Notes: generated by a model not told the origin, from the letters alone. Positions 17,628 to 32,491 are shown, counted from the stretch's first letter. The stretch: 64,000 nucleotides of DNA from Flavobacterium sp. (GCA_020403245.1 JADBYA010000006.1:25494-89493); one strand, 5' to 3'. Numbers and translations are program-made.

Positions 17628-19136
17628 TTAGTTTGGTTTTATTAAAATTGTTTGCAATGCTTTAGCATCAATAGAAATAGTTGACTTTTTATTAGATAGG
17701 TTTATTTCTAGTATTTGAATAACATCTGTTGGATTAAAAACAACTACTGCAATGCTACCATCAGGGTTTTTAACTGCTGTTGCCATAAGTTCATTATTAT
17801 TCATAGTGCATCCAATTTTCACAGCACCTGGACGCATGAATTTGCTAAAATGAGAGATTACATAATACAATGGTGTAAAGTACACTTCGTCTTTTTCAGT
17901 GTCTACAATCACAGGTGCTACACACCAGTTTTTGAACCAATTGGGACCACCTTGTGTATTTAAAACCATATTCCAATCGATCCATCCATCAACCCAATTG
18001 TTTAAACAACCAATAATATCAGCTGCATAACGATTGACTGGTGCGTATTTTGGATGTAAGTATTTGTCATTTTCACTTGCCCAGTCCCAACCCCAGTCTG
18101 TTGCCTCCTTTTTCCAATACCAAGCATCGTCTTTCCAATGTGGAATTTCAGAGTCGACACAAGCCTCTGTTTGAATTAAGTATTTATTAGGCGCTTTTTG
18201 ATGAGCATATTGCAACGCTTCGGGGAAAACTTCATAAGTGCTTTCATACCAATGAATAGCCAAACCATCAAAATATTTAGTTGATTTCTCGTCATTATAC
18301 ATCACATCAACCCATTCTTTTATACCCGCTCTATTTTGATCGTATCCTAATATCTTTATATCTCCCCAACCGTCTTTTTCTAGTTTTGGACCTAAATGAT
18401 TTTGAACAAATTGAGTCATCTCATTAGGTGAAAAAAGGGTGCTTTCCCAGTTATTTCCATTACCGTGAGGTTCATTGATAACGGTTACTCCCCAAATATT
18501 GATACCTTCTTTTTTATAGGCCTCTAAATATTTAGAAAAATATAAAGCAAACGTATCGTTGTATTGGGGCAGTAATTTTCCGCCCACATATTTTTTGTTG
18601 TCTTTCATCCATGGTGGAGCTGTCCAAGGTGAAGCAATGATAGTAAAACCTTCTTTTGAAATAGCTTTGGCTTCGAGAATCATGGGTATCAAATCCGATT
18701 TGTCATCTTCAATTGTAAAGTTTTTTAATTCTAAATCATCATCAACTTTGGCATACGTATAATTGCTTAATGAAAAATCACAAGAAGCTATGTGAGTTCT
18801 AGTCAGAGAATAATTAGCTCCTTCTTCGCTAAAATAAGCGTCTACTATTTTTTTGCGATTGTCTTTACTCAATCGATTGAGTAAAGAAGCCGAAGCTTCA
18901 GTAAAAGAGCCACCAAAACCAGTTATTGTTTGGAATTGTTGTTCAGGATTTAGCGTTATTTGTATTGGATTGGAATTTTTATGAAAATCGGTTATCTTGT
19001 TTAAAGTATTTCCGTTAGCAGAAGTTTCATAAACGTGTACTGTCATTTCTTTTGAGCTTCCGCAACCATACAATAATAATAGGAAACCAATTATCATTAG
19101 TTTAATAAGGGATATTTTTAAATGTACTTTATCCAT
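17628..19136 (-). CDS. GH30 glycoside hydrolase (beta-1,6-glucanase/glucosylceramidase-like) lipoprotein
   Basis: Lipobox LLLYGC. Clan-A motifs VINEPHG (acid/base) and LIQTEAC (nucleophile). GH30-like overall. Confidence 0.8.
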   Translation of the reverse strand: MDKVHLKISLIKLMIIGFLLLLYGCGSSKEMTVHVYETSANGNTLNKITDFHKNSNPIQITLNPEQQFQTITGFGGSFTEASASLLNRLSKDNRKKIVDAYFSEEGANYSLTRTHIASCDFSLSNYTYAKVDDDLELKNFTIEDDKSDLIPMILEAKAISKEGFTIIASPWTAPPWMKDNKKYVGGKLLPQYNDTFALYFSKYLEAYKKEGINIWGVTVINEPHGNGNNWESTLFSPNEMTQFVQNHLGPKLEKDGWGDIKILGYDQNRAGIKEWVDVMYNDEKSTKYFDGLAIHWYESTYEVFPEALQYAHQKAPNKYLIQTEACVDSEIPHWKDDAWYWKKEATDWGWDWASENDKYLHPKYAPVNRYAADIIGCLNNWVDGWIDWNMVLNTQGGPNWFKNWCVAPVIVDTEKDEVYFTPLYYVISHFSKFMRPGAVKIGCTMNNNELMATAVKNPDGSIAVVVFNPTDVIQILEINLSNKKSTISIDAKALQTILIKPN

Positions 19137-19138
19137 AA

Positions 19139-20392
19139 TTAATTTTGCTTTTTAATTAATCTTGGAACTTTAACATCCTGCCATAGAGCTTTTTCATTGC
19201 CACTGTATGATTTTGTAATTGGTTTACCATTTCTGGTTAATCCTTTTAAAAAACCTTTATCTATTGCATCCCAAAGCGCAAATTTGGCTTGGTTTTGCAA
19301 ATTGAATAATCCGAAATGATTCTCGTACCCTTCCGGATTCAAACCATCTTTCCAATTTTCATCAAAAGCTTCAAAATAAAAACAGGTGATTTTTTCTTTG
19401 TTTGACCATTCTCGCATCAATTTATAATATTGAGCAGCTTTGTATTCGTCGGCTGCTTTGGAACCATTATTTCCGTAAAACACATTATCATTGGAAGTCC
19501 AACCTGTTTCACCAATTTGAACTGGCTTATCAACGCCAATCGATTTCATATAGTTTACAACTCCATTATATTGTGAAATAGCATAATCTCTGGCTCGCAA
19601 CATAGCCGCATCTATTTTCATTTTATCGGACAAATTTGTTTCATTTTCTTTAATTCCCCATATTTCTGGAAAAAAACGTTCATCGTGAATTGGATACGTA
19701 TGCAAGGAAATAAAATCTACCGCTTTTATTAATTTATTCAAATCTTCGGTATGATATTGCGCATCACCTCCTCCCCAAGAAAGATAATTGTCTGAGCTTG
19801 TTATCCATAGATTTTTTGGTAATTGTTTTGTTTTTTTTAATTCTTGCAAATGATTTACCCATTTTAAAATGATATTTGGCGTTACATAATAACTGGTTGC
19901 CCATTTAACCATTGCCTCATTTCCAACAGAAATAAGCTTAATAATCTCAGGATATAGATTGGCTAATTCTACAGCTTTTTGAATTTCAATGGCATTACGT
20001 TGACTTTCTTCTTCATGAATTGGGGCGATTTCTGTCCAAGCATTTTTACAATCAATCCATGCGCCTAGCATCACATACATTTCAAACTTAGGATTCTCTT
20101 TTTTTAATTCGGTTATAGCTTTTAGCACATTTACTATTTCCTCCCGATGCAGATTATAGGTTCTGATTATTTTGATATTTATAGCTGCTAAAATTTTTAA
20201 ATCCTCCTTAACCTCCGAAACATTTGGTTCAATATCTCTTGTATTGGTGCGATAGCCACCATAACAAATACCTTGATATTTGGGATTTCCTAAAAGTATT
20301 TTGGCGGTAACTTCTTTTGAATTTTGCGCATAAAGTTTACCATAAGTAAAAGATAGCAGCAGCAGAAATACTATGTAGATTTCTTTTTTCAT
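19139..20392 (-). CDS. GH17 beta-1,3-glucan hydrolase/transglycosylase, periplasmic
   Basis: Signal peptide. SVGNEAMV and IGETGWTSND match the GH17 acid/base and nucleophile motifs. One-nt TAATG overlap with the upstream gene. Confidence 0.7.
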   Translation of the reverse strand: MKKEIYIVFLLLLSFTYGKLYAQNSKEVTAKILLGNPKYQGICYGGYRTNTRDIEPNVSEVKEDLKILAAINIKIIRTYNLHREEIVNVLKAITELKKENPKFEMYVMLGAWIDCKNAWTEIAPIHEEESQRNAIEIQKAVELANLYPEIIKLISVGNEAMVKWATSYYVTPNIILKWVNHLQELKKTKQLPKNLWITSSDNYLSWGGGDAQYHTEDLNKLIKAVDFISLHTYPIHDERFFPEIWGIKENETNLSDKMKIDAAMLRARDYAISQYNGVVNYMKSIGVDKPVQIGETGWTSNDNVFYGNNGSKAADEYKAAQYYKLMREWSNKEKITCFYFEAFDENWKDGLNPEGYENHFGLFNLQNQAKFALWDAIDKGFLKGLTRNGKPITKSYSGNEKALWQDVKVPRLIKKQN

Positions 20393-23300
20393 TAAGATAG
20401 TAAGCCATCTTTGATTGACACTATAATTTTGACTATTTCAGCAGTTCGTTGAAATATTTTTTGGCTATTTTCTTCATCCAATTCTAATGAATCGACTCTA
20501 TTTCTATTCCCATTTTTATAAAAAATCTCCATTTGATTGGCTGTTGATTTTGTATAAATAATTGGAACTTGACAAAAGGTAAACGCCAAACTATCTTTCT
20601 CTAAAGTAATTAACTTTTTAGTGCCATCAATTTGTATAAATACAGCTTCGGTATCTTCGGCTAAAAACTCTTTTTCGTGAAGTAAATTTGGTCGGAATTT
20701 CAATTTTCCATCGTGCATCTTCACTCCCAATTCACCAATTCTAGTAAGAATATCTTCTTTCACTTGACCCGTCATTCCTGGTTGTTGTGCTCCTTTGCTG
20801 AATGGCGTATGCGAATAAGGATCGGTTGGAAAAGCACCATAAACAACGGGGGATTTATGAACGCCAATTCCGGCTCCTATTTCTTCAAAATGAGTACTTA
20901 ATAAATTAATAACGTCTTGATTTTCATTTTGTTCAATAGCGAAATTGGTGACTTCTAAAACCGCTAACTGCAATTTCGAAACCATGTGCCAATAAATAGA
21001 GCCCAAACCTTCATAACCATAAAAAGTTCCTGAACGACCTGTAAAAGCTTTATGATTGAATACTTCTTCAAAAATTTGTAAAACAGTTTCTGTTTCAATG
21101 GCTACTAATTCTTTGTAAATTGGGTAATTTCCTAGCTTGAGTAGCGCTTCTTTTAAATCATTGGCATTATGAAAATTTCCATTAAAATGAAATCCACCTT
21201 TTATGTCTTGATTGATTAGTTGAAGATTACCTTTTTCAAGGAGTTTTTTCAGTAAAAAGGATTTTTCAACCTTCTCCTTTGGAATTGTATTTTTCTCTAG
21301 AAACTTTGGTAATTTTTTGTTTGGATATAAAATATAACTATTTTGATCTTTTCTATACAAATCACTACTTCTTAAGGCATCTAATACTTCAATTGATTTT
21401 TTTGCATCTAAATAACCTGAACTTAAAACAGCTACTTGACCTTCTAACATTTCGGGCAAATAGGAAATGGATATTCCGTCATTTTCTATCGACATTAAAT
21501 TATAAGCGTGGTATAGTTTATCGTGTCTTTGGTTGGCTTTGATAGCATGCTCGATAAAATCAATGCTTACTTGTGTAAATTTTTTCAAACCAGCCATAGA
21601 ATGGGTTCGTTTCTTACCCCAAAAACCACTGTAGTACACATGATTACGATATTCTGAAGCAGCTTGACCTAAAGCATCCAAAATTCTTTTTCTATCTTGA
21701 TTGTTTATGGAACCTGAAAGTTGTGGTTGAAACTCAATTAGACTTTCTCTTATAGCATGATAAAACTCAACCATTTCATTAGAAATCTTAATAGTTTCTT
21801 GATTTGAATTTTCCAATAACTGTTGGAAGAACTTCAGGAATCTTCTCAGGTAATAAAGCGTAACCATAGAAACGCCATTTCCAACAAGTGCATTATTGGC
21901 ATCATTCCATTCTGGTCGTTGTGTATTCATCCAAATCCCAGCTTCTGGAATAAAATTGGACATTTTTGCCAAAACGGTAGCCAATATTTTTTCGATAAAA
22001 TTTACGTGATAGATTTCATCATTATTGTCTCGCAACAAGGCACCATCTGCACCAATGCTGTCTCTTCTTTTATTGATTTTAGCATCCCATTCATGATTAA
22101 ACAAAATGGTATCCTTTGGATTTTGCAAAATCTCTTGATAGGATTTTATTGTATAAGGAACAGCAGCATATACAAAACATTCCTTATCAAAATAAGAGTT
22201 CAATTTACCGGGTTGGTATTTTTCTATAAACTCTAAAAATTTTAATAAATAAATGATTTGATGGTCACCCCAATACCCAATATAAGACCATGGATTATCG
22301 GGTTCAATAGTTTCCCAATCAAAACCTTCTTTTGTAACGCGATACGGATTGTAACCATCAAAAGTGGAAGCATTCAAGAACTTATGAATCATACCATCAA
22401 TAAATTCAGGATAAGCATAAGCTAAAGCTTCCCAATTCTGAAATATATCGCGCCAGTTGCCTTGATAATCTAATATTTTGGAACCATCAATTTCACTTCT
22501 GGTATTGATAGAAAACTTATTCCAAGGACGACTAGGGTCACCATGTCTCCGACTGAATTTAAGTGGTAAATATTCTGTGCATAACCGAATAATATCAGCA
22601 TCATCAACACTTGCAATTAATTGTTGCAAATGCGAATAATCAAAAGTTTCAGGTAAAGTATTAAAAAAAACAGAATTATTTTCAAAAACACTATTGTTTG
22701 CTTTTGAAATGTAATTTACAAAATCACTTTTTTCAACTTGATAGTTATTATCAAAAATTCCACCACGCATGATGTTGAATAATACGTTTGAAAAGTGGCG
22801 TGTATCTTTGCGTTTATCTGCAGTAAATTGCAATCCGTCTGCGGTAGCGTTTAAAGCAATTAGATTTTGTTTTCCTAATTCAATGTCTTCAAGTACTTTG
22901 TATTCTAATTCTTCATCATTACAAATGGCATCTGCCAATTGAATAACTTGCGATTGATCTTGATTAACGTTAGCAATAATATGCCAACTCTTAGTAGAAT
23001 TTTTAACTAGATATAAGTTGGTCGAAACAAAATAAGCTCCTTTTTCCCCTTTAATATCAGTTTCATTTTGAAGTTGTTGGGCTTTTCTGAATGCTGGGAG
23101 TTGTAACGATGAAAGTAAATAAGTTGGTTTATCTATGCCTAAAGACCATGCTACATTGGCTTTCAGCGCTTCGCTGGGTTCGGCTTTATCCACAATAATA
23201 GCACTAAGAGCAAAAATACCTAAACCGCTTTCTTGGAGCAATTCATTTCTTTTATAAGCGTCAACTAAGTTACTGGTTGTTGCTTGTAAATCGCTACTAA

Positions 23301-23862
23301 CACCATTAGGCAAAATGTTTTGAATACCATCTAAAAGAGTAATTGAATAATCAGTTGCTGCATTACTGATCAACTCCGATGTTTTTACAAATCCAAATAA
23401 ATTACTAGAACTCCATTGATATCTAAAAGTGAGCTGAAAATCATCATGAACTTCTTCAAAAAGGATTTTATTTCCATACTCATTTTTGTAAATATTCCGA
23501 CTTAAATTATAGTTTTCATTAAAACGTTCCGAAAAAGGTTCCCAAAGATAAGTTTGATCATCTGAATGAATTTGGAAAATGGTTTTACTTCCAGTGATAT
23601 CAGCAAATTCAGTAATTTTATCATCGGTATAATAAGGAAAAAGAGCCAATTCGGCGTTTTTTCTTCCTGCTGTTAGTCCGCCATTGCTTGATATAAACAT
23701 CCAGTGATTAGAATCACTTACGATACTCATAAAAAATGGTCGCATGCTATCATTATTAGCAATTTTATAATAATTTTCATTATCAATAACGACCATTTCT
23801 AAAGAAACAGTTTTATCTACAATTTTTGAATCATTATCCATAATTGTTTGGCTTTGGCTCAT
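20392..23862 (-). CDS. Large cytoplasmic GH94/GH149-like glycoside phosphorylase (putative beta-1,3-glucan phosphorylase)
   Basis: 1156 aa with no signal peptide. Motifs RRHGDPSRPWNKF and RPEWNDANNAL resemble GH94-type phosphate-binding and DWND catalytic motifs (recalled from memory). Embedded between GH16 and GH17. Confidence 0.55.
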   Translation of the reverse strand: MSQSQTIMDNDSKIVDKTVSLEMVVIDNENYYKIANNDSMRPFFMSIVSDSNHWMFISSNGGLTAGRKNAELALFPYYTDDKITEFADITGSKTIFQIHSDDQTYLWEPFSERFNENYNLSRNIYKNEYGNKILFEEVHDDFQLTFRYQWSSSNLFGFVKTSELISNAATDYSITLLDGIQNILPNGVSSDLQATTSNLVDAYKRNELLQESGLGIFALSAIIVDKAEPSEALKANVAWSLGIDKPTYLLSSLQLPAFRKAQQLQNETDIKGEKGAYFVSTNLYLVKNSTKSWHIIANVNQDQSQVIQLADAICNDEELEYKVLEDIELGKQNLIALNATADGLQFTADKRKDTRHFSNVLFNIMRGGIFDNNYQVEKSDFVNYISKANNSVFENNSVFFNTLPETFDYSHLQQLIASVDDADIIRLCTEYLPLKFSRRHGDPSRPWNKFSINTRSEIDGSKILDYQGNWRDIFQNWEALAYAYPEFIDGMIHKFLNASTFDGYNPYRVTKEGFDWETIEPDNPWSYIGYWGDHQIIYLLKFLEFIEKYQPGKLNSYFDKECFVYAAVPYTIKSYQEILQNPKDTILFNHEWDAKINKRRDSIGADGALLRDNNDEIYHVNFIEKILATVLAKMSNFIPEAGIWMNTQRPEWNDANNALVGNGVSMVTLYYLRRFLKFFQQLLENSNQETIKISNEMVEFYHAIRESLIEFQPQLSGSINNQDRKRILDALGQAASEYRNHVYYSGFWGKKRTHSMAGLKKFTQVSIDFIEHAIKANQRHDKLYHAYNLMSIENDGISISYLPEMLEGQVAVLSSGYLDAKKSIEVLDALRSSDLYRKDQNSYILYPNKKLPKFLEKNTIPKEKVEKSFLLKKLLEKGNLQLINQDIKGGFHFNGNFHNANDLKEALLKLGNYPIYKELVAIETETVLQIFEEVFNHKAFTGRSGTFYGYEGLGSIYWHMVSKLQLAVLEVTNFAIEQNENQDVINLLSTHFEEIGAGIGVHKSPVVYGAFPTDPYSHTPFSKGAQQPGMTGQVKEDILTRIGELGVKMHDGKLKFRPNLLHEKEFLAEDTEAVFIQIDGTKKLITLEKDSLAFTFCQVPIIYTKSTANQMEIFYKNGNRNRVDSLELDEENSQKIFQRTAEIVKIIVSIKDGLLS

Positions 23863-23907: not shown

Positions 23908-24708
23908 CTATTCGTAAATTCTGATATAATCCACTAACATTGATTGGGGAAAAGGAGTTTCAGCATTAGGCGAACCAGGTAAATTTCCTCCAACTGCAAT
24001 GTTAAGAATTAAATAAAAAGATTGATTGAAAACCCATTCTCCAGGAACATCACTAGGTGTAACAGAATGATATAAGAAGTCATCCACATAAAAATTTATG
24101 TTATTTTCGTCCCATTCTATCCCAAAAACATGAAAATCAGTATCAAACCTACTATTTGAAAGAAAGAAGTTTTTTGAAATTGATTCACCACCAGAGTATC
24201 CGGGACCGTGAACGGTTCCAAATATTTTAGTTGGACTATTCCCAAGGTATTCCATAATATCGATCTCTCCACAAGCGGGCCATGTAACCGTATCAGAATT
24301 GGCTCCTAACATCCAAAAAGCTGGCCACAATCCTTGACCTAATGGGAGTTTGATACGTGCTTCTATTCTGCCATATTTTTGTTCCAATTTGCCTTTGGTT
24401 AAAATTCTAGCCGAAGTGAATGCAGATCCTAAATACAGTTCTCGACGAGCAGTTATCTTTAGATTACCATTCTCAACTATTATATTTTGGGGTCTATCAG
24501 TATAATATTGTTTTTCGTTGTTTCCCCAACCATTGTTGCCAGTTCCAATATTATAACTCCATAAGTTTGGATTTGGAGCACCATTTACATCAAATTCTTC
24601 ACTCATAACCAAAGTCTTTTTGGTTATTACAGTTTGCTTTTCATCGGTTGAGCAACCTAGAAATAGTAAGCAAAAGCCAATTGTAAGTAAATTATTTATT
24701 TTTATCAT
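23908..24708 (-). CDS. GH16 laminarinase lipoprotein
   Basis: Lipobox LFLGCS, GEIDIMEY, WPAFWMLG. 266 aa single-domain GH16. Confidence 0.9.
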   Translation of the reverse strand: MIKINNLLTIGFCLLFLGCSTDEKQTVITKKTLVMSEEFDVNGAPNPNLWSYNIGTGNNGWGNNEKQYYTDRPQNIIVENGNLKITARRELYLGSAFTSARILTKGKLEQKYGRIEARIKLPLGQGLWPAFWMLGANSDTVTWPACGEIDIMEYLGNSPTKIFGTVHGPGYSGGESISKNFFLSNSRFDTDFHVFGIEWDENNINFYVDDFLYHSVTPSDVPGEWVFNQSFYLILNIAVGGNLPGSPNAETPFPQSMLVDYIRIYE

Positions 24709-24742: not shown

Positions 24743-26179
24743 TTAGTTATAAAAATAGATATTGTCAACATAAATGACTGAACCATCACCACCCTCTAAA
24801 ATAATTTGAGCAAGTTTAGACCGACTTAGTAAACCAGGCATTGCAGAGAAAGGAATATCAATGGACATCCAATTTTGTGAAACTAAAAAAGGCGCTGCAA
24901 AAGTCGTTGAATGTCTTGTATCATCACCGCCACCAAAAACGCCGTTTGCACCAAAATCAACAACTATAACTCTCAATTGTCTTCCCGGAGCAATAGGGCC
25001 TGGTATAAATGCATCTAAATGCACATGTGTCATGGTAGTGGCATTTACTGTTGGGTTGCTAAATTCAATACCAACAAAATTAAAAATGGTATAGTTTAAT
25101 ATGTTATCATTTGAAACTGAAAAGTCATTAGAAACGGTAGTTTGCCATGGCTGCCAATAGCCGTTATAATAATTTACCGGTACGTTGTTATAGGTATCTG
25201 AAAAAATTGAAATAACATTAGCTTGATTTCTTGTAGGAATTGGAGCATGAACAAAAACACCAGAACAATTAATGGTTAAACTCCCTAAAGCTGTTACTCC
25301 TTTAAAACTAGCTGTAATTACAGCTGTACCCGCACTATTCGATGTTACTACACCTGATGAATCAACAGATGCTACGCTAGGGTTGGAAGAAGTAAAATCC
25401 ATAAAAGCTGGACTTACTGCAACTGCCTGATTGACTCCACTAGGTAAATTAAATGTTACTTTTACATTTTGCACACTTGAGCTAACTCCAACAAACGTTG
25501 TTTGAGAAACATTATTCCCATTCATAATTGAAGCTTGACCTGGTGCAATAGTACCTAATTTTTCAAATTTCAAATCATCAATCCAAAAAGTATAACCAAA
25601 ACCATTGGTTCCCTCACTACCAGCCGAATATCTAAACATACCTCTTTCTTTAACAAGTTTAGATGCATCGGGTATTGGAATAATTACTTTTTGCCAGTTT
25701 GTTCCCACGCTAACATTTTTAATGGTTGTAATGTATTTATTTGGGAAAAAATCTTCACCAAAACCAAACTCACCAATAGTTACTCCCTGACTAGCTTTAA
25801 CATAAAAAGTTAATGCGTCATAACCCGTTAAATTACGACCTGCTCCTTCTGTTCTAAAAATGGCACCAGTATAGTTTCCTTGAGGATTATTACTATTTGG
25901 AACATCAAAACGCATGGAGGCATTACTATTGTATCCTACTTGTCTATCAACCGACCAAGCTGTAAATAACGAGCCCACAGGATTAGAGGCATCTGGACCA
26001 TAAGGAAAGTAAAAATCTGTTCCCATTCCTATAACATCTTCGATGAAGATTTCTGCTGTTTTAGGGTAAGTAGCTAATGTAGCGTCATCAGACATCTCTC
26101 TTTCACAACTGTAATTGATTAGTAAAATCAATACTAAAAGCAGAGAATTTCTAAATAATTTTAAATTTGTGTTTTTCAT
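24743..26179 (-). CDS. Surface glycan-binding lipoprotein candidate (Big_2 domain plus C-terminal beta-glucan-binding-like module)
   Basis: Lipobox LINYSC. Big_2-like segment SSNPSVASVDSSGVVTSNSAGTAVITA. The C-terminal module (SIFSDTYNN...WMSIDIPFSA...IYVDNIYFYN) is shared with the 618-aa T9SS protein. Confidence 0.55.
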   Translation of the reverse strand: MKNTNLKLFRNSLLLVLILLINYSCEREMSDDATLATYPKTAEIFIEDVIGMGTDFYFPYGPDASNPVGSLFTAWSVDRQVGYNSNASMRFDVPNSNNPQGNYTGAIFRTEGAGRNLTGYDALTFYVKASQGVTIGEFGFGEDFFPNKYITTIKNVSVGTNWQKVIIPIPDASKLVKERGMFRYSAGSEGTNGFGYTFWIDDLKFEKLGTIAPGQASIMNGNNVSQTTFVGVSSSVQNVKVTFNLPSGVNQAVAVSPAFMDFTSSNPSVASVDSSGVVTSNSAGTAVITASFKGVTALGSLTINCSGVFVHAPIPTRNQANVISIFSDTYNNVPVNYYNGYWQPWQTTVSNDFSVSNDNILNYTIFNFVGIEFSNPTVNATTMTHVHLDAFIPGPIAPGRQLRVIVVDFGANGVFGGGDDTRHSTTFAAPFLVSQNWMSIDIPFSAMPGLLSRSKLAQIILEGGDGSVIYVDNIYFYN

Positions 26180-26203: not shown

Positions 26204-29200
26204 CTATTTTCCAATATTTATATGAACATACGTTCTAATTTCCCATTCAGAGCCATTACCAAAACCAACTGGACTTAATGGAGGCACTGCTGGAAATGTG
26301 TTTTCTGGTACGAAAGTTGGCAAATACCTTGGTGAGTATTGGTCTAATGAACGCCAAATTCCCATAATACCTATTCGAGTATCTGGCAAAATGAACCAAC
26401 TTGGTTTTCCAACTGAAGTTGATATATCTAATGCTGTTTGAACAGGGAAAGTTAAGTTAAAATCTCTATGGTAGTCAAATGGACCCCAATCGTTAAATTT
26501 AACAGAGGAAACCACTTTTACTTTTTTATAAATCATTCTAATATCGCCACCAACTCTATTAATTGTTCTTTCGGAGTCGCCATTTGCTTGACCATTACCA
26601 AAATAAATGTTAGCAATTATACCAAAATCTGGAGTAAGTTTGGATACTATTCTGGTATTTGATTCCCATAAATCTTGAGCTGGTGCAGATCTTTCAAAAG
26701 CAAAAAGACTTCTGTTGGCTAAAAATCCAATGGCAGCATCTTGTGTTGTAGGCAAATGACGGTAAACAAATCCTGTATTAAATGCAAATTTGGCATCTTC
26801 TACCATATCATTATTCCATTCGTACATCCATGTTGCTGGAGTAGGGTCATACGTTAACAAGAATTCACCACCAACAGTTTCTCTATTGACTCTTACAATA
26901 AAAGGGTCTTCTAATATGTTTCTTAACCTTCCTGGTGCATCCACCCCATTTGGCATTGCCTCAACAAGAGGTTTTTGCCATAAAAAGTTGGGAGCTAATT
27001 GTAAATTAGAATTTACATTATAAGTTAATCCTGTTAGGACATTCATTTGATTTCCACTTCCGGTATCTTTTAAACGCCATCCTGTAAAAGTTTGAGTTAA
27101 ATCGGCACCACCATTGGCAACTAATCCTTGTATTGCTCCTTGAGCGTAAGCATTAAATCTGCCTTCTGAAAAAGTTAATTTTGCTTTTCCACCCCAATTG
27201 TCGCTCGATTTGACTTTATCAACTTTTACCACATCACCATCCATCATTTGGAATTCTCTACCGTTTAAAGGTTGTCCGCCCCAAATACCACCTAATTCAA
27301 TACCTAAGTTTCCGAGCTTGGTTTTAAAATGAACTGTTGCTCTTCTTGTTATTGGTTGAGGGATAAATAAGGAAGTAATGGCACCAGCAGCACTAGCTAT
27401 ATCTTCGTGATACACTGCAGTAGCATCAACCCTACCAATTTTCTTGCTGTATTTTAGTAAATAAGCTGGATTCGCTCCCCACCAAAGTTGTGGTCCAAAA
27501 GCAGCTTTTAATCCATCCAAACTACCTTTACCATCTATTTCTAAACCTAATGTTTCTCCGTTATAGATGTCTAAATTTGGTCCATAATTTGTTTCTGGAT
27601 ACAACCCAAAGAAATCACCTTCATAACCCCAATGGTAATGACCAACTCTGTAAAAACCTCTCACCTCAAAATCCTTAGTATTCCATTTGTATGAGGCATT
27701 ATAAACTTGGATTCTGTTTACATCAGTAGTTAATACATTTCCATCTTCTGTAACTACATTTTGAGCTCTACCTCTATTTTCATAAAAAATTTCGTTAATG
27801 GGATTATTAGCAACATTACCAAGAATATTAAAGTTTACGTTGGCTTTCATATTGGATGACGGGTTCCCTTCAATACCAATAAAATATGATTGCATGTGGT
27901 CAAAACCTGTTTTATTTGGATATGTATTTGTATTTGGATCATCTACTTCTGGTGTAGTTAATAGACTACCACCTGTAGAAAAAGTTGTGAATTCAGCTCT
28001 TAAATTACTTACTTTTAAAATATCTGTGTCATTAGTACCAAGGGCAGCTTTATCACCTCTAGCTCTTAAAGCAGCATCCATAAGATTTGCATTTTCGAAA
28101 TTGTTATTTAAAATAGTTACATTAGCTCCATTGTCAAATGGATTAAACTTATGTAAATCTTTTAATACATAATAGGCGGCTCTTGGATACAGTTGGTATG
28201 ACCCATTTGCACTAGTTGGCCCTTTGGCACAAATTCCAAACCATTCCTCGTTCATATTGTTTTGACCTTCAGTAAAATCTTTCTGATAACCACCGTTTGA
28301 CCAAGAAGCATTACTATCATGAGAGTCTAAATTTTTGGTTTGTCCAAATTTCCACCAACCATCACTAAACTGAAATGTAAAACCTCCTATACAGTTTTCT
28401 GATTTGCCTAAACCAGCAGCGTTTTCATATATTTCTTTCCAATTTCCTTTCAGATAAAAAGCTTGAGCATTTTGGTCTTCTTGATTGGTTAATACATTGA
28501 AAGCATCAGCACCAAACTCTGTGAATAATACTGGTTTACCATATTCTTTTTTAACTCGTTCGAATAAATCTCCAAATGAAACACCTCTGTAAACATTGGT
28601 TCCAAGTATATCAACGTCTCTACATTCTTTGGAAATTATATCAAGAAAAAGCAAATCACCATTACATATTGCAATAGGATGTGAAGTGTCTATTGCTTTC
28701 ATGGCTACAACAGCAGAATTAAAAAACTTGTACATGGACTCAGCCCTAACCGTTGATTTTCTATCTTTTAAAGGAATATCTTCTGTTTCTGCTCCATCCC
28801 AAAATAAGCCATAGTTGTTTTCGTTTCCTAACAAAAACAATAATAAACCTTTTGCATCCTTGTATTCAGAAATCATTTCTTTCACCTCTTTCATTAAAAG
28901 AGCTTGTGTTTTACTATCGGAATATTCAGTATTTGGTGTCCAAACTCCATCTAATGTTAATCCATAACGTCCAAATGAATGATTTAGCATAGTGTAAATA
29001 CCATGATTTGTGTAAATATATTCAATCCATTTTTTAGGAATACCACTATAAACTCTAATTGTATTTACCCCCATGTTTTTAAGCAATCCCATTTCTGAAT
29101 CAAGAGCATCCTTGATGAAATTATCTGTTTGTTTCCAAAGACTGTAATTGTAATTTTCTCCAATTGGAATGTAATCCCAATTCATCCCATTTACAATAAA

Positions 29201-29323
29201 TTCCTTTCCATCAACAACAAGTTTAATCCCTTTACTGTCATTCACAACAGCGACTTTACTGCTCTGAGAATAAACAGATGTTGAAAAAATTAGAACTGCA
29301 AATTGTAAAATAAAATTTTTCAT
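26204..29323 (-). CDS. Fusion protein: N-terminal clan GH-A-like TIM-barrel glycosidase domain plus roughly 600-aa C-terminal predicted outer-membrane beta-barrel
   Basis: Signal peptide (FSTSVYSQ). NTIRVY, LLGNENNYG (Glu168) and VLFTEFG (Glu269) are spaced as clan GH-A catalytic residues. Residues ~440-1039 are strand-rich with alternating hydrophobicity (NVLTGLTYNVNSNLQLAPNFLW, VGGDIRMIYKKVKVVSSVKF, EWEIRTYVHINIGK). Confidence 0.5.
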   Translation of the reverse strand: MKNFILQFAVLIFSTSVYSQSSKVAVVNDSKGIKLVVDGKEFIVNGMNWDYIPIGENYNYSLWKQTDNFIKDALDSEMGLLKNMGVNTIRVYSGIPKKWIEYIYTNHGIYTMLNHSFGRYGLTLDGVWTPNTEYSDSKTQALLMKEVKEMISEYKDAKGLLLFLLGNENNYGLFWDGAETEDIPLKDRKSTVRAESMYKFFNSAVVAMKAIDTSHPIAICNGDLLFLDIISKECRDVDILGTNVYRGVSFGDLFERVKKEYGKPVLFTEFGADAFNVLTNQEDQNAQAFYLKGNWKEIYENAAGLGKSENCIGGFTFQFSDGWWKFGQTKNLDSHDSNASWSNGGYQKDFTEGQNNMNEEWFGICAKGPTSANGSYQLYPRAAYYVLKDLHKFNPFDNGANVTILNNNFENANLMDAALRARGDKAALGTNDTDILKVSNLRAEFTTFSTGGSLLTTPEVDDPNTNTYPNKTGFDHMQSYFIGIEGNPSSNMKANVNFNILGNVANNPINEIFYENRGRAQNVVTEDGNVLTTDVNRIQVYNASYKWNTKDFEVRGFYRVGHYHWGYEGDFFGLYPETNYGPNLDIYNGETLGLEIDGKGSLDGLKAAFGPQLWWGANPAYLLKYSKKIGRVDATAVYHEDIASAAGAITSLFIPQPITRRATVHFKTKLGNLGIELGGIWGGQPLNGREFQMMDGDVVKVDKVKSSDNWGGKAKLTFSEGRFNAYAQGAIQGLVANGGADLTQTFTGWRLKDTGSGNQMNVLTGLTYNVNSNLQLAPNFLWQKPLVEAMPNGVDAPGRLRNILEDPFIVRVNRETVGGEFLLTYDPTPATWMYEWNNDMVEDAKFAFNTGFVYRHLPTTQDAAIGFLANRSLFAFERSAPAQDLWESNTRIVSKLTPDFGIIANIYFGNGQANGDSERTINRVGGDIRMIYKKVKVVSSVKFNDWGPFDYHRDFNLTFPVQTALDISTSVGKPSWFILPDTRIGIMGIWRSLDQYSPRYLPTFVPENTFPAVPPLSPVGFGNGSEWEIRTYVHINIGK

Positions 29324-29379
29324 AATATAAATTATTTGGTTTGGTTGATAAATCTAAATTAAATTTAATAGTTACATTA

Positions 29380-29402
29380 TTTAAACAAATCTTTTGTTTA
29401 AA
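29380..29402. promoter_or_regulatory. Perfect 10-bp-arm palindrome in the operon leader (candidate operator)
   Basis: TTTAAACAAA-tct-TTTGTTTAAA read directly, 57 nt upstream of the ATG at 29323. Confidence 0.3.
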
Positions 29403-29659
29403 ATACAATTCTGTACCCCTATTTTTTGTGTTTCAATAAAAAACAATGTCCTAAATTGCGATATTGTAAATTTACATTTTTTATAATTTGACTTTCAAAT
29501 TATATATTAAAGAAACTATACAAGGTGATTTTAAAATCAAAAAAGTAGCTTAGAGTAGATAAATAAAGAAAATAATACTAACTCATGTAATGAAGTCCTA
29601 TAAAGAATATACAGCTTGTATAGTTTATGTATAGGCAATATGTACAAATAGGAGTTTTT

Positions 29660-32491
29660 TTATATTGAAAGAATGTATTCAACAAGGCCAGTTTCGTGTG
29701 ATAAATCCATTTTTTTGCGCAAACGATATCGTTTAATTTCTACACTTCGCACAGATATATTTAATAAAGGTGCTATTTCTTTTGACGATAAATTTAATCT
29801 CAAATAGGCACAAAGTCTCAAATCGTTAGGAGTTAATGATGGATGCTCTTGTTTTACTTTCTTTAAAAAATCTTTATCAGCTGAGTCAAATGCTTCTTTG
29901 AATACATTCCACGCATTGTCTACTGACACGTTTTTATTTATAGTTGTTGTAATTATTGATTTAATGCTTCTAGAACTCGACTCATCGGATGATTTCTTCA
30001 AATCTTCTCTAATTAGTTTTAATAACTCATCCTTTTTAATTAAGTTCATTGTTGATAAAGCTAACTCTCTATTCTTTTCATTCACATCCAATGAAAGTTG
30101 CTCATTTTTTAATTTCATTAATTGTTGCTCATTTTCTAACTCTTTTATTTCAAGCAGAAGATTATTTTCTTCTATTAATTTTTGCTTTTGTTTTGAATAA
30201 TAATTTCCATAAGCTTTATTTATATAATAGGCAAAAACACACATTAAGAGGAAATAGATAATTAGTGCAAAATTTGTTCTGTACCAAGGTTTTGATATTG
30301 TGAAAGAATAAACTACACTGCTTTCCGGTTGAGAATTGATTAACTTTGATCGCAATTTGAATGTATAATTTCCTGGTGGTAAATTTTTAAAGTTAATGGT
30401 TGACTTAGAACTCCAATCACTCCACTGATCTTGAAATCCCTCTAATAAATATTGATATTCAGTAATTATGTATTTATTATATCCAGGAACAGCATAGCTA
30501 AAAGTAATGTTATTTTCATCATGTGAAAATTTTCCGTTCTCTATAATTGGAAAACTAATTAGTTTACCATTGAGTTTATTGATGCTAATGTTAGTAAGAA
30601 TTACATTAATATTTTTAAAATTTAATCCATCAATATTAAATGTATAATATCCATCAGTAGTTCCTATGAGATAATTTGAATTATTTAGCTGAGTAATATT
30701 TTCATATCCCAACATAGAGTTTGTAATTGAAGATGGAATAGAAATCACATTTTTCTTTAATTCAGCATTCAATTTATTTACTGTAAAATAGTTGATATAA
30801 TTTTTTGAAAATAACCATAATTTATTCGAACTGTCAATTATCAATTTCCCAGAAGTATATTCATTATTTTCAAAAATTGAACTTAATGTTTTGTCGATTT
30901 CAAACTCTTTTGACTTTTGATTTAGCTTAAAAATTCCTTCCTTATAGGCATAATATATTGCATTATTGAATTTAGAAAGACCAGAATTTTTGCCTTTTTC
31001 AGGTTTGGTATAAGTATATAGCTTTGAACCTTTTCTAAAATCAGAGTCCAATTGAAAGCGAAAGATACCTTTGTACTCATGACTTACATATATTTCATTT
31101 GAATTTGTAATTTCGAAATGTTTAGAGGAGTAGCTAAAACCTGAAATTTTATTTCTAAAAACCCAGCGATTATTAATTTTCTCCAATACCGATATTCCAT
31201 AATAATTACCTTGAAGTAATAAATTGCTATTATTTGGAACAACTTCAAGTTTCCAAGTTCCCGATTGAGAAAAAATTTGATTAGAAGAATCTTTTTCAAT
31301 GATAAATGTTCCTGAGTCATGACCGCAAAACAAGTTTCCATCATGAATAAATAAAGACCAAACTTGACCTTTTGTTCCTTTGATAAATTTGAACTGATTG
31401 TCATTTAAAAAATCTTTGTAAAATAATCCTTGATTAGTTCCGATATACAATTTCCCTTTATGAAGAACAGAAGCGTACACGGTTCCTAAAGCACCTGTAT
31501 CGTCAAAAAAACTTCGGATTGGAGATTGCAAATTGATACAATTTATTCCATTATCCAATCCAAGCCATATGTTGCGGTCAATATCCTCAAAAATAGATAA
31601 AACTGTGTTGTTACTTAATCCTTTACTTTGCGTAATATGGTATTTTACCGTTCCCTCTCTTGTTAAAATAAAAACACCATTAGAGATTGTTCCAATAGCA
31701 AAGTTGCCATTTTCAAGCATTTGACTGCTATAAATACTACTTAACGAAATAGCTGAATCAGCTTCTGTTCTAAATTTTACTAAACTCCCATTGGTAAATT
31801 TATAAAAACCATCAAATTGAGTATGAATTAACAATCCATCAGTAACAGCAAAAACATTGACAATTTTGTTGTTTTTAAGTAATTCATTATTTAATACAAG
31901 CCGACTTGACCCATTTTCTATTTCAAACAAATCGTAATTTACAGTTTGATAATAAATAGAACTTGAGGTTTTAAAAGATTTTAAAATATTATTTTGTGGT
32001 GTTACGATTTTGAACGCTTTGGTTTTGGTATCATAAATGTAAATTTTATCTAGGGATTGAAAAATAACCCACTGATCATAATTCCAAATATTCCAAAATT
32101 GTTCATCTACATTAATTTTAGATTTAATTTTCTGACTTAAGGAAGTATATTGAAGTCTACCATTTTTTTCTCTCACCCAATAGCCAAATTCCATGTAACA
32201 TCCAGTAAATATTTTATCACCAATAACTTTTACTGATCTAACTATTGTTTCGTTTGGTGATTTATATAACGTCCAGTTAGAACCATTAAATTCTAATAAT
32301 CCTTCATTGTTTGCAAAATAAATAAAATGATTTTTATCCTGAGAAACCATCCAATTTTGATTTCCTGCAGTATATGTAGTAGAACTATATTTAACAATTG
32401 GGGGTAAATCTTGAGCATAAATACTACTAGTAAATACTACTAGTATTATCATACTTATTAATCTTTTGTTAAATAAAATCTTATCAGCCAT
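29660..32491 (-). CDS. Transmembrane one-component sensor/regulator: periplasmic beta-propeller repeats plus Y_Y_Y domain, TM, coiled coil, LuxR-type HTH
   Basis: Signal/anchor, then propeller repeats. Y_Y_Y motif YQYLLEGFQDQWSDWS...NLPPGNYTFKLRS. TM FALIIYFLLMCVFAYYI. C-terminal LTPNDLRLCAYLRLNLSSKEIAPLLNISVRSVEIKRYRLRKKM. No kinase or receiver motifs. Confidence 0.8.
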   Translation of the reverse strand: MADKILFNKRLISMIILVVFTSSIYAQDLPPIVKYSSTTYTAGNQNWMVSQDKNHFIYFANNEGLLEFNGSNWTLYKSPNETIVRSVKVIGDKIFTGCYMEFGYWVREKNGRLQYTSLSQKIKSKINVDEQFWNIWNYDQWVIFQSLDKIYIYDTKTKAFKIVTPQNNILKSFKTSSSIYYQTVNYDLFEIENGSSRLVLNNELLKNNKIVNVFAVTDGLLIHTQFDGFYKFTNGSLVKFRTEADSAISLSSIYSSQMLENGNFAIGTISNGVFILTREGTVKYHITQSKGLSNNTVLSIFEDIDRNIWLGLDNGINCINLQSPIRSFFDDTGALGTVYASVLHKGKLYIGTNQGLFYKDFLNDNQFKFIKGTKGQVWSLFIHDGNLFCGHDSGTFIIEKDSSNQIFSQSGTWKLEVVPNNSNLLLQGNYYGISVLEKINNRWVFRNKISGFSYSSKHFEITNSNEIYVSHEYKGIFRFQLDSDFRKGSKLYTYTKPEKGKNSGLSKFNNAIYYAYKEGIFKLNQKSKEFEIDKTLSSIFENNEYTSGKLIIDSSNKLWLFSKNYINYFTVNKLNAELKKNVISIPSSITNSMLGYENITQLNNSNYLIGTTDGYYTFNIDGLNFKNINVILTNISINKLNGKLISFPIIENGKFSHDENNITFSYAVPGYNKYIITEYQYLLEGFQDQWSDWSSKSTINFKNLPPGNYTFKLRSKLINSQPESSVVYSFTISKPWYRTNFALIIYFLLMCVFAYYINKAYGNYYSKQKQKLIEENNLLLEIKELENEQQLMKLKNEQLSLDVNEKNRELALSTMNLIKKDELLKLIREDLKKSSDESSSRSIKSIITTTINKNVSVDNAWNVFKEAFDSADKDFLKKVKQEHPSLTPNDLRLCAYLRLNLSSKEIAPLLNISVRSVEIKRYRLRKKMDLSHETGLVEYILSI

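What the first reader, a model, noticed from the sequence alone, without database searches (positions are those of the whole stretch)
26204..29323. Glycosidase-like TIM barrel fused to a porin-like beta-barrel: candidate enzyme-channel chimera
This is the first gene of the operon.
- **Residues ~20-400:** they carry clan GH-A hallmarks. These are NTIRVY, LLGNENNYG with Glu168, and VLFTEFG with Glu269, about 100 residues apart as expected for acid/base and nucleophile.
- **Residues ~440-1039:** roughly 600 aa of short amphipathic strands, Gly- and aromatic-rich with frequent N/D/G turns. Examples are FNAYAQGAIQGLV, NVLTGLTYNVNSNLQLAPNFLW, AKFAFNTGFVYRH, VGGDIRMIYKKVKVVSSVKF, RIGIMGIWRSL and EWEIRTYVHINIGK. 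This is the texture of a large outer-membrane barrel, not of soluble CBM or Ig domains.
- **What that would mean:** a covalent fusion of a glycan-processing domain to an outer-membrane barrel in a catabolic locus would couple surface binding or hydrolysis directly to translocation.
- **Novelty:** I do not know a characterised example. The closest thing I recall is CBM9 fused to DUF5916-type barrels, which are also uncharacterised.
Basis: inference. Interest (0 to 1): 0.85.

Follow-up and report, generated by a model that had tools for sequence, protein, structure and literature searches.

The report
Beta-glucanase fused to outer-membrane barrel
The first gene of this Flavobacterium laminarin-utilisation operon encodes a beta-1,3-glucanase-like enzyme domain joined to a large, previously undescribed outer-membrane barrel, probably a sugar-chain import channel with its own built-in enzyme that stands in for the usual SusC/SusD importer.

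Summary
A 1039-aa ORF lies at 26204-29323 on the minus strand, and every quoted motif sits at the stated residue.

**N-terminal part.** Residues ~21-400 form a clan GH-A TIM barrel closest to GH158 endo-beta-1,3-glucanases. Both catalytic Glu (E168, E269) are conserved.

**C-terminal part.** Residues ~433-1039 are confidently predicted (AlphaFold2 pTM 0.79) as about 24 long antiparallel strands.
- Every one of the top 50 Foldseek matches is an outer-membrane barrel.
- No Pfam, NCBIfam or PDB family matches by sequence.

**Distribution and context.**
- At least 587 species-level genomes carry the fusion.
- The named homologues come from Bacteroidota, Spirochaetota, Fibrobacterales and a Pseudomonadota MAG.
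- Every context examined is a beta-1,3-glucan locus.
- In Bacteroidota a surface lipoprotein follows it in 79 of 79 loci and a GH16 in 61 of 62.
- Only 7 of 51 fully flanked loci hold a SusC-like gene. This window has none.

**Best reading.** This is a TonB-independent laminari-oligosaccharide channel with a tethered glucanase.

**Literature.** Papers list this gene only as GH2, and probably as GH0 or GH158. None mentions the barrel. Localisation, channel activity and enzyme activity are untested.

The parts
26204..29323 (-). Whole ORF X (1039 aa plus stop): signal peptide, GH158-like domain, helical linker, beta-barrel
29264..29323 (-). Residues 1-20, type-I signal-peptide-like N-terminus (MKNFILQFAVLIFSTSVYSQ)
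   Evidence: Read from the sequence. AF2 predicts a helix at 2-17 with low pLDDT. No signal-peptide predictor was available.
28124..29263 (-). Residues ~21-400: (beta/alpha)8 clan GH-A domain, GH158-like. Acid/base N167-E168 (E168 codon 28820-28822); nucleophile E269 (codon 28517-28519).
   Evidence: PDB profile hits to GH158. Foldseek GH158 at 1.5e-15. Family-wide conservation of both Glu.
28028..28123 (-). Residues ~401-432: two-helix linker (H402-411, H414-429) between enzyme domain and barrel
   Evidence: pLDDT is about 90 in the full-length model. It falls to about 40 when the enzyme domain is left out. The linker therefore packs on the enzyme domain, not inside the barrel.
26207..28027 (-). 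Residues ~433-1039: predicted ~24-stranded transmembrane beta-barrel of an undescribed family. It carries conserved loop motifs (GHYHWGYEGDFFGLYPE 560-577, DPFIVRVNRE 806-815, YDPTPATWMYEWNNDMVEDA 825-844, NDWGPFDYHRDFNLTFPVQ 944-962) and a beta-signal-like C-terminus.
   Evidence: no Pfam hit
24743..26179 (-). 478-aa lipoprotein (lipobox LINYS-C, acidic residues after the Cys). Weak CBM30 and Big_2 hits. Putative surface glycan-binding partner.
   Evidence: immediately downstream of X in 79 of 79 loci
23908..24708 (-). GH16 lipoprotein (C-STDEK), putative surface endo-beta-1,3-glucanase
   Evidence: within 6 kb downstream of X in 61 of 62 loci
20392..23862 (-). GH149 beta-1,3-glucan phosphorylase, no signal peptide (cytoplasmic)
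   Evidence: NCBIfam NF058639, 1781 bits against a cut-off of 1150
19139..20392 (-). GH17-like protein with a type-I signal peptide (periplasmic)
17628..19136 (-). GH30 (endo-beta-1,6-glucanase-like) lipoprotein
16164..17603 (-). MFS/GPH-family inner-membrane sugar symporter
14407..16110 (-). GH16-fn3 protein with a T9SS C-terminal sorting domain
29660..32491 (-). 943-aa regulator with Reg_prop/Y_Y_Y sensor and a GerE/LuxR HTH, with no kinase or receiver domains. This is the BguR architecture.
   Evidence: bioRxiv 10.64898/2026.01.10.698779
29324..29659 (-). Regulator-X intergenic region, presumably holding the operon promoter. CTATACA repeats and the palindrome TATACAAGCTGTATA lie at about 29608-29635.

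Best explanation
X is an outer-membrane protein made of three parts: a retaining GH158-like beta-1,3-glucanase domain, a short helical linker, and a roughly 24-stranded beta-barrel of a family not yet described.

**Proposed pathway (inferred).**
1. The barrel is the TonB-independent outer-membrane passage for laminarin-derived beta-1,3-gluco-oligosaccharides.
2. The surface lipoprotein encoded next to it captures the glucan.
3. The surface GH16 lipoprotein nicks the glucan.
4. Chains enter the barrel through its conserved aromatic and acidic loops.
5. The tethered enzyme domain, sitting at the periplasmic mouth, cuts the incoming chain. This keeps a downhill gradient or ratchets the chain inward.
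6. GH17 and GH30 trim the fragments in the periplasm.
7. The MFS symporter carries the oligosaccharides into the cell.
8. GH149 phosphorolyses them in the cytoplasm.
9. A BguR-type one-component regulator switches the operon on.

**Shown by computation.** The fusion itself, GH-A/GH158 affinity with intact catalytic residues, a confident barrel-class prediction, the conserved gene neighbourhood, and the usual absence of SusC/SusD.

**Inferred.** Outer-membrane localisation, channel function, periplasmic orientation of the enzyme, and the partnership with the lipoprotein.
For: **Enzyme domain.**
- GH158 is the best sequence and structure match.
- The NE and TE catalytic motifs are conserved in nearly all homologues.

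**Barrel.**
- AF2 on the full-length protein gives pLDDT 84.4 and pTM 0.69. On the C-terminal half alone it gives pTM 0.79.
- All 50 top Foldseek PDB matches of the C-terminal half are outer-membrane barrels, at probability 1.00 and E 1e-9 to 1e-6.
- Across 20 homologues, one face of the strands has mean hydropathy +1.27 with 6% charged residues. The other face has -0.98 with 29% charged.
- Of the 20 homologues aligned, 18 end in a hydrophobic or aromatic residue (one search shows the same in further groups). This window's clade carries two extra residues, GK.

**Topology.**
- Connections alternate between 2-6-residue turns and 18-36-residue loops.
- The linker ends only 6 residues before strand 1, on the short-turn side.
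- The linker loses confidence when the enzyme domain is removed.

**Genomic context.**
- Over 80 Bacteroidota loci, the lipoprotein follows X in 79 of 79 and a GH16 in 61 of 62.
- Of 51 loci with full flanks, only 7 contain a SusC-like gene.
- The window has no SusC or SusD.
- Fusion homologues in Spirochaetota, Fibrobacterales and a Pseudomonadota MAG also sit beside GH16 or GH17 genes. SusC/SusD is not reported as typical of those groups (established knowledge, not tested here).
- The barrel motifs persist even where the catalytic Glu are lost.

**Compartments.** Signal peptides give a complete surface, periplasm, inner-membrane, cytoplasm pathway in which only the outer-membrane passage is otherwise missing.
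Against: - Nothing has been tested experimentally. I could not inspect model coordinates, so barrel closure, strand count, pore size and the position of the enzyme domain rest on secondary structure, confidence values and Foldseek class matches.
- TM-scores to known barrels are low (0.2-0.36).
- A coevolution test for closure between strand 1 and strand 24 was inconclusive.
- About 9 of the 80 loci also carry SusC/SusD, so X is not simply an alternative to them.
- One homologue carries a CBM4_9 module before the enzyme domain. The characterised GH158 BuGH158 is described as a cell-surface glycosidase (title of PMC7157763). Both facts fit a surface-exposed enzyme better.
- The part order (enzyme, helix, C-terminal barrel) also resembles an autotransporter.
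Confidence: 0.55

Rival explanations
1. Autotransporter-like surface display. The C-terminal barrel mainly anchors the N-terminal glucanase and exports it through itself, with the helical linker running through the pore. The enzyme would then act on polymeric laminarin at the cell surface. The barrel might or might not also pass oligosaccharides.
For: - The part order (passenger-like enzyme, about 28-residue helix, C-terminal barrel) is that of type Va autotransporters.
- A homologue has a CBM4_9 module N-terminal to the enzyme.
- BuGH158 is described as a cell-surface glycosidase (PMC7157763).
Against: - The barrel has about 24 strands, not 12, and has long conserved loops.
- The linker helix has pLDDT of about 40 in the barrel-only model. 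AF2 therefore does not place it inside the lumen.
- No autotransporter Pfam domain hits.
- The locus already has a surface GH16 lipoprotein and a T9SS-sorted GH16.
- This reading leaves SusCD-less loci without an outer-membrane passage.
Confidence: 0.2
2. Membrane anchor only. The barrel is plugged by its own loops and simply tethers a periplasmic glucanase or glucan-binding domain to the inner face of the outer membrane. Uptake goes through an unlinked SusC/SusD or porin elsewhere in the genome.
For: - Some loci do have SusC/SusD next to X.
- The long, confident, conserved loops could fill the lumen.
Against: - A 600-residue barrel is an expensive anchor when lipoprotein anchoring is the norm in this phylum.
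- The barrel motifs are conserved across four phylum-level groups, even where catalysis is lost.
- The surface lipoprotein is coupled in 79 of 79 loci, which argues that the barrel communicates with the outside.
Confidence: 0.12
3. A divergent TonB-dependent transporter in which the enzyme domain replaces the plug.
For: The best Foldseek matches of the barrel are TonB-dependent transporters, including Bacteroides BtuB with its surface lipoprotein.
Against: - No Plug or TonB_dep_Rec_b-barrel Pfam hit, whereas a true SusC in a related locus hits both.
- The profile-profile comparison with SusC barrels gives probability 0.13%.
- The N-terminal strand KVAVVND aligns with the start of the GH158 fold, so it is not a free TonB box.
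- TM-scores are at most 0.36.
Confidence: 0.05
4. The C-terminal half is a set of soluble beta-sandwich, CBM or Ig modules of a secreted or periplasmic enzyme.
For: The alternating hydrophobic/polar pattern alone cannot distinguish a sandwich core from a lipid-facing belt.
Against: - It is predicted as a single domain with pTM 0.79 and about 24 consecutive hairpin-connected strands.
- There is not one soluble fold among the 50 best Foldseek matches.
- No CBM or Ig Pfam hit in 20 homologues even at E of 10 or below.
- The C-terminus resembles an outer-membrane beta-signal.
Confidence: 0.03

Closest known systems
GH158 endo-beta-1,3-glucanases (BuGH158, PDB 6PAL; GH158(Pro), PDB 9ORO/9P26)
   Same: - Both have a clan GH-A (beta/alpha)8 fold, with the N-E acid/base after beta4 and the E nucleophile after beta7.
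- GH158 is the best sequence-profile and Foldseek match.
- Both occur in beta-1,3-glucan loci.
   Different: - Identity is only about 12-15% in the structural alignments.
- The profile match covers mainly residues 135-276 (9oro) or 132-323 (6pal), plus a weak N-terminal stretch (E 49).
- The eight-stranded Ig-like domain that follows the TIM barrel in BuGH158 (PMC7157763) is absent. Two helices and a 600-residue barrel take its place.
- BuGH158 is described as a cell-surface glycosidase (PMC7157763). Here the domain is N-terminal to a barrel.
SusC/SusD-type glycan import complexes of Bacteroidota
   Same: - A large outer-membrane barrel is encoded directly next to a surface lipoprotein, at the head of a glycan-utilisation operon.
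- It sits in the position SusC/SusD normally occupy.
- Foldseek places the barrel nearest to TonB-dependent transporters.
   Different: - No plug, no TonB box, and no sequence homology.
- The partner lipoprotein has CBM/Ig-like features rather than a SusD fold.
- The barrel carries a catalytic domain.
- X can coexist with SusC/SusD.
Sugar-specific diffusion channels (maltoporin LamB, chitoporin ChiP, CymA)
   Same: - The proposed function is the same: TonB-independent passage of oligosaccharides along conserved aromatic and polar residues.
- Chitoporin is among the top Foldseek matches (rank 8).
   Different: - Those channels have 14-18 strands and carry no enzyme domain.
- There is no sequence similarity, and TM-scores are at most 0.38.
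Type Va autotransporters with enzymatic passengers (for example esterase EstA)
   Same: An N-terminal enzyme, a helical linker and a C-terminal barrel lie in one polypeptide.
   Different: - Autotransporters have a 12-stranded barrel with the helix inside the pore.
- Here there are about 24 strands, and the helix is not confidently placed in the lumen.
- The context is catabolic uptake.
CBM9-DUF5916 proteins
   Same: - Both are uncharacterised fusions of a carbohydrate-related N-terminal domain to a putative barrel.
- In spirochaetes, a separate CBM9_1 protein is encoded immediately upstream of the X homologue.
   Different: - No DUF5916 Pfam hit in 20 barrel halves even at E of 10 or below.
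- The relationship, if any, lies below HMMER sensitivity. I did not test it by structure.

Membership tests
CAZy GH158 (clan GH-A) | (beta/alpha)8 TIM-barrel catalytic domain | tested here: met
   AF2 predicts alternating strand and helix over residues 24-400 at high pLDDT. The top Foldseek matches are GH158, GH157 and GH2.
CAZy GH158 (clan GH-A) | Asn-Glu acid/base after beta4 and Glu nucleophile after beta7 | tested here: met
   N167-E168 and E269 align with the NE and TE(F/W)G motifs of 9oro and 6pal. They are conserved in the family. The BuGH158 residues are N136/E137/E220.
CAZy GH158 (clan GH-A) | Significant full-domain sequence similarity to family members (CAZy assignment) | tested here: inconclusive
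   The family profile hits GH158 at E 1e-10, but mainly over residues 135-276 (9oro) or 132-323 (6pal), plus a weak N-terminal stretch at E 49. Pfam sees only Glyco_hydro_2_C in some homologues. Papers call genes at this position GH2, GH0 or GH158. No CAZy or dbCAN tool was available.
CAZy GH158 (clan GH-A) | C-terminal Ig-like domain packed on the TIM barrel (as in BuGH158) | tested here: not met
   After the TIM barrel, AF2 shows two helices (402-429) and then the barrel.
CAZy GH158 (clan GH-A) | [quoted passage not shown] | not testable with these tools
   Requires an enzyme assay.
TonB-dependent transporter / SusC | N-terminal plug domain (PF07715) and TonB box | tested here: not met
   X has no Plug hit. 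The SusC of L078 hits Plug and TonB_dep_Rec_b-barrel in the same kind of search. The N-terminal strand belongs to the GH158 fold.
TonB-dependent transporter / SusC | Homologous 22-stranded barrel | tested here: not met
   No PF00593 hit in 20 homologues at E of 10 or below. hhalign against a SusC alignment gives probability 0.13%. There is only fold-class similarity, with TM at most 0.36.
Type Va autotransporter | 12-stranded C-terminal barrel with the linker helix in the pore | tested here: not met
   About 24 strands are predicted. The linker has pLDDT of about 40 in the barrel-only model. No autotransporter Pfam hit.
BAM-assembled outer-membrane beta-barrel protein (generic class) | Signal peptide, an even-numbered antiparallel meander with short turns alternating with long loops, and a C-terminal beta-signal | tested here: met
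   Signal-peptide-like N-terminus. 24 predicted strands with alternating 2-6-residue and 18-36-residue connections. In 18 of the 20 aligned homologues the last residue is hydrophobic or aromatic after a Y-x-Phi-x pattern. This rests on prediction only.
BAM-assembled outer-membrane beta-barrel protein (generic class) | Closed barrel with a hydrophobic belt; outer-membrane localisation | not testable with these tools
The dyad hydrophobicity fits, but the coevolution test of closure was inconclusive.
DUF5916 barrels | Match to the Pfam DUF5916 model | tested here: not met
   No hit in 20 barrel halves at E of 10 or below.

The most novel reading that the evidence does not exclude
X founds a separate class of outer-membrane glycan importers. 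In this class a substrate-specific barrel carries its own glycoside hydrolase at the periplasmic exit, with a surface lipoprotein as receptor in Bacteroidota. Chain cleavage or processive threading, rather than TonB, would drive the uptake of long beta-1,3-glucan fragments. This machinery would be shared by Bacteroidota, Spirochaetota, Fibrobacterota and some Pseudomonadota. It would carry a large part of environmental laminarin turnover in organisms or loci that lack SusC/SusD.
Probability: 0.3. Interest if true: 0.9.

Novelty: new variant of a known kind. Interest (0 to 1): 0.75.

Why it matters
Laminarin is one of the largest fluxes of fixed carbon in the sea. The accepted model for its uptake by Bacteroidota is SusC/SusD with TonB.

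This gene heads a very widespread type of beta-1,3-glucan locus: at least 587 species-level genomes in the scan. Most of those loci have no SusC/SusD. Bloom transcriptome and genome papers list a gene in this position only as GH0, GH2 or GH158, without noting that 60% of the protein is a membrane barrel.

If the barrel is the uptake channel, three things follow:
- It explains how SusCD-less loci import their substrate.
- It gives a new marker gene for laminarin use in metagenomes, including spirochaetes and Fibrobacterales.
- It provides a first case of a glycoside hydrolase built into an outer-membrane passage. That makes the question of TonB-independent oligosaccharide uptake directly testable.

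Tried and rejected
- **Direct family searches with X.** Pfam, NCBIfam and single-sequence PDB searches gave nothing useful. Only a family profile exposed the GH158 link.
- **Pfam on the barrel.** Scanning 20 barrel halves at E of 10 or below found no porin, TonB-dependent transporter, DUF5916 or autotransporter family.
- **Barrel against SusC.** hhalign found no homology.
- **First genome scan.** It failed because the alignment was too divergent. It worked after trimming to closer sequences.
- **Coevolution (mean-field DCA).**
  - The aim was to test barrel closure and strand pairing on 346-353 sequences (Neff about 160).
  - The first run was dominated by gap artefacts.
  - The second showed only a mild enrichment of neighbouring-strand pairs (25% against 8.7% background) and no strand 1 to strand 24 signal. 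The result is inconclusive.
- **The 306-aa protein upstream of X in SusCD-containing loci.** I tested whether it is a CBM9 protein like the one upstream of the spirochaete homologues. No similarity was found.
- **Literature.** Searches for GH158 with barrel, for laminarin with beta-barrel, and for GH149/GH17/GH30 with barrel found no description of the fusion. A search on DUF5916/CBM9 was uninformative.
- **Glucan-export porin (BcsC/PgaA-like).** Rejected. The locus holds no glycosyltransferase and is otherwise entirely catabolic.
- **Model coordinates.** They were not available to scripts. Strand counting, pore geometry and domain placement could therefore not be measured directly.


Full report
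**1. The observation**

The region 26204-29323 holds a single 1039-aa ORF on the minus strand. The plus-strand frame is full of stops.

This includes E168 in LLGNENNYG and E269 in VLFTEFG. The N-terminus MKNFILQFAVLIFSTSVYSQ looks like a type-I signal peptide with no lipobox cysteine.

The gene follows a 336-bp intergenic region. Seven genes sit downstream on the same strand, spaced from a 1-base overlap to 53 bp apart. "First gene of the operon" is therefore reasonable.

**2. The locus**

Reading along the minus strand:

| Gene (window coordinates) | Product |
|---|---|
| 32601-34457 | CBM4_9 protein with a T9SS sorting domain |
| 29660-32491 | 943-aa regulator: Reg_prop/Y_Y_Y sensor plus GerE HTH, no kinase or receiver domains |
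| 26204-29323 | X |
| 24743-26179 | 478-aa lipoprotein: lipobox LINYS-C followed by EREMSDD; weak CBM30 and Big_2 hits |
| 23908-24708 | GH16 lipoprotein (C-STDEK) |
| 20392-23862 | GH149 beta-1,3-glucan phosphorylase, 1781 bits, no signal peptide |
| 19139-20392 | GH17-like protein with a type-I signal peptide |
| 17628-19136 | GH30 lipoprotein |
| 16164-17603 | MFS/GPH symporter |
| 14407-16110 | GH16-fn3 protein with a T9SS sorting domain |

- No SusC or SusD gene lies in this locus. No ORF in the 64-kb window that is long enough for a SusC gave such a hit.
- The regulator has the architecture of BguR, the membrane-spanning one-component activator of laminarin loci described in bioRxiv 10.64898/2026.01.10.698779.

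**3. The N-terminal domain**

- X alone matches no Pfam, NCBIfam or PDB sequence.
- A profile of 34 diverse homologues hits GH158 structures (9oro_A at 1.3e-10, 6pal_A BuGH158 at 1.8e-10), then GH2 TIM barrels.
- The AF2 full-length model has pLDDT 84.4 and pTM 0.69. It shows a (beta/alpha)8 domain over residues 24-400.
- Its best Foldseek matches are GH158 (1.5e-15), then GH157 and GH2.
- N167/E168 and E269 align with the NE and TE(F/W)G motifs of the GH158 structures. In BuGH158 the catalytic residues are N136/E137/E220.
- Both Glu are conserved through most of the family. A Fibrobacterales group and a few other distant members have lost them.
- The Ig-like domain that follows the TIM barrel in BuGH158 (PMC7157763) is absent. 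Helices 402-411 and 414-429 follow instead.

I therefore call the domain GH158-like, clan GH-A. Formal CAZy membership could not be tested.

**4. The C-terminal domain**

*Structure prediction*
- In the full-length model, residues 436-1037 form about 24 strands of 7-18 residues. They are connected strictly as hairpins.
- The half modelled alone (residues 398-1039 with 19 homologues) gives pLDDT 80.4 and pTM 0.79, with the same strands.
- All 50 best Foldseek PDB matches of that model are outer-membrane barrels: BtuB, PfeA, FepA and other TonB-dependent transporters, Campylobacter MOMP, chitoporin, Occ porins and LptD.
- Those matches have probability 1.00 and E from 1e-9 to 1e-6, but TM-scores of only 0.2-0.36.
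- The fold class is therefore clear, while no solved structure is a close relative.

*Sequence features*
- Twenty barrel halves match no Pfam family even at E of 10 or below.
- A profile-profile comparison with SusC barrels is negative, at probability 0.13%.
- Across the family, one face of the predicted strands is hydrophobic (mean hydropathy +1.27, 6% charged). The other is polar (-0.98, 29% charged).
- The proteins end in Y-x-Phi-x-Phi, with a hydrophobic or aromatic last residue in 18 of the 20 aligned homologues. This resembles the beta-signal of BAM substrates. This window's clade adds GK.

**5. Topology (inference)**

- Strand connections alternate between short turns and long loops.
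  - Short turns of 2-6 residues join strands 2-3, 4-5, 6-7, 8-9, 10-11, 12-13, 14-15, 18-19 and 20-21.
  - Loops of 18-36 residues lie on the other side.
  - Three connections on the long-loop side are short (7, 7 and 11 residues).
  - Two conserved longer connections lie on the short-turn side: 826-846 and 971-982.
- In all known outer-membrane proteins the short turns and both chain ends face the periplasm (established knowledge).
- The linker ends 6 residues before strand 1, on the short-turn side.
- Its pLDDT drops from about 90 to about 40 when the enzyme domain is removed. AF2 therefore packs the linker on the enzyme, not inside the lumen.
- The enzyme domain is therefore most likely periplasmic.
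- I hold this at about 60%. I could not view coordinates, and the part order also resembles an autotransporter.

**6. Distribution and context**

*Size of the family*
- More than 5471 homologues appear in the 90%-identity database; the best 120, all at 80% identity or more, are mostly unnamed metagenome proteins, and those that carry a name are Flavobacterium "glycosidase" or GH2/GH5-family entries.
- There are 2110 clusters at 50% identity, many of them full-length at 28-52% identity.

*Bacteroidota*
- A scan of one genome per species found at least 587 carriers.
- The best 80 are all Bacteroidota: marine and freshwater Flavobacteriaceae, Chryseobacterium and Cloacibacterium, Saprospiraceae, Chitinophagaceae, Cyclobacteriaceae and Bacteroidales MAGs. 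All 80 are full-length fusions.
- In those loci the lipoprotein follows X in 79 of 79 cases and a GH16 in 61 of 62. GH149, GH17, GH30 and MFS usually come next.
- Of 51 loci with full flanks, only 7 contain a SusC-like gene.
- Where SusC/SusD is present (for example Polaribacter L078) the order is regulator, SusC, SusD, PKD/CBM4_9 protein, 306-aa protein, X, lipoprotein, GH16 and so on.

*Other phyla*
- A distant subfamily at about 35% identity is found in Spirochaetota: Treponema bryantii, T. zioleckii, Gracilinema and Thiospirochaeta.
- There a CBM9_1 protein lies directly upstream, and GH16 or GH17 genes lie beside it.
- Further groups occur in Fibrobacterales MAGs, where the catalytic Glu are lost and a GH16 is adjacent. 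Another occurs in a Pseudomonadota MAG, where the catalytic Glu are intact and GH16, GH17 and a separate GH2_C-like enzyme lie nearby.
- The barrel motifs GDFF, DPFxVxxNRE and NDWGPYDYxxxFNxTFPxQ are conserved in all groups.

**7. Mechanism**

The signal peptides assign every step of a laminarin pathway except the outer-membrane passage:
- surface binding: the lipoprotein and the T9SS CBM protein
- surface endo-cleavage: GH16
- periplasmic trimming: GH17 and GH30
- inner-membrane transport: MFS
- cytoplasmic phosphorolysis: GH149

X is the only barrel in the operon. It is locked to a surface lipoprotein and keeps its barrel motifs across phyla that are not known for SusC/SusD.

The best-supported explanation is that X is that passage. 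It would be a TonB-independent, substrate-specific channel. Its tethered GH158-like domain would cleave, or in catalytically dead variants only bind, the emerging chain. A processive GH158 has recently been described (PMC13195107), which makes a ratchet conceivable. That last step is speculation.

Rivals are autotransporter-like display, a plugged anchor, a plug-less TonB-dependent transporter, and soluble modules. They are weighed in the rival list.

**8. What is known**

- The Muricauda lutaonensis PUL paper describes a cluster of LuxR, "GH2 beta-glycosidase", GH16, GH149, GH17, GH30 and MFS (PMC13188888).
- North Sea bloom studies list "GH149-GH0-GH16_3" laminarin PULs whose GH0 is among the most highly expressed genes (PMC10108472).
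- The BguR preprint lists GH158 in the Formosa agariphila PUL, which is induced 70- to 110-fold on laminarin.
- By synteny these genes are most probably X orthologues. I did not verify this.
- The GH158 structural paper kept only catalytic domains for its network analysis (PMC13195107).
- No paper I could search mentions the barrel.

**9. Verdict**

- The enzyme half is a new, distant member of a known clan.
- The barrel half is an undescribed family.
- The combination, as the head gene of mostly SusCD-less beta-glucan loci in several phyla, is a new variant of outer-membrane glycan uptake machinery. It could turn out to be a class of its own.

Everything beyond sequence, prediction and synteny remains to be tested.

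Noticed in passing
window 29660-32491 (-): The regulator upstream of X has a Reg_prop/Y_Y_Y sensor plus a GerE HTH, with no kinase or receiver domains. This is the architecture of BguR, the laminarin-PUL activator described in a 2026 preprint. Here it heads a locus that has no SusC/SusD.
   Followed up: partly
window ~29608-29635 (- strand), in the regulator-X intergenic region: The sequence CCTATACATAAACTATACAAGCTGTATA holds two CTATACA repeats and the palindrome TATACAAGCTGTATA. 9-mers built around the same CTATACA core recur in 9-14 of 31 regulator-X intergenic regions of related loci. It is a candidate regulator binding site.
   Followed up: partly
L081 9217-10008 and L082 9060-9998 (spirochaete loci): In Treponema bryantii and Thiospirochaeta perfilievii, a CBM9_1-domain protein is encoded immediately upstream of the X homologue. 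In T. bryantii it overlaps the X start. The 306-aa protein at the same position in some Bacteroidota loci is unrelated.
   Followed up: partly
proteins P0176, P0170, P0380, P0381 (Fibrobacterales MAGs); L083: A subfamily has lost both catalytic glutamates (GSSH and FTLG/FSLG) yet keeps all barrel motifs. Where the context was read (P0176, locus L083) it still sits next to a GH16. The enzyme domain may have become a binding-only module.
   Followed up: partly
protein P0152 (1218 aa): One homologue carries an extra CBM_4_9 module in front of the enzyme domain, giving a CBM-GH-barrel architecture. This bears on which side of the membrane the N-terminal part faces.
   Followed up: no
L028 9989-10990 and L048 10001-10999: Two Flavobacteriaceae MAG loci have an additional ORF of about 333 aa, 25% identical to X, directly upstream of X. 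In both, GH149 and GH17 come before it. I did not determine which part of X it matches.
   Followed up: no
window 32601-34457 (-) and 14407-16110 (-): Two T9SS-sorted proteins bracket the locus: a CBM4_9 protein and a GH16-fn3 enzyme. A CBM4_9-like ORF precedes the regulator and X in many of the closest loci, mostly Flavobacterium; not every one was checked for the T9SS domain. The system therefore combines T9SS-secreted, lipoprotein and barrel components.
   Followed up: partly
L084 11914-13716 (Pseudomonadota MAG): A separate 600-aa Glyco_hydro_2_C-type enzyme is encoded two genes downstream of the X homologue. GH16, GH17, LysR and LacI genes are also present, so the module also occurs in a non-Bacteroidota beta-glucan cluster.
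   Followed up: no
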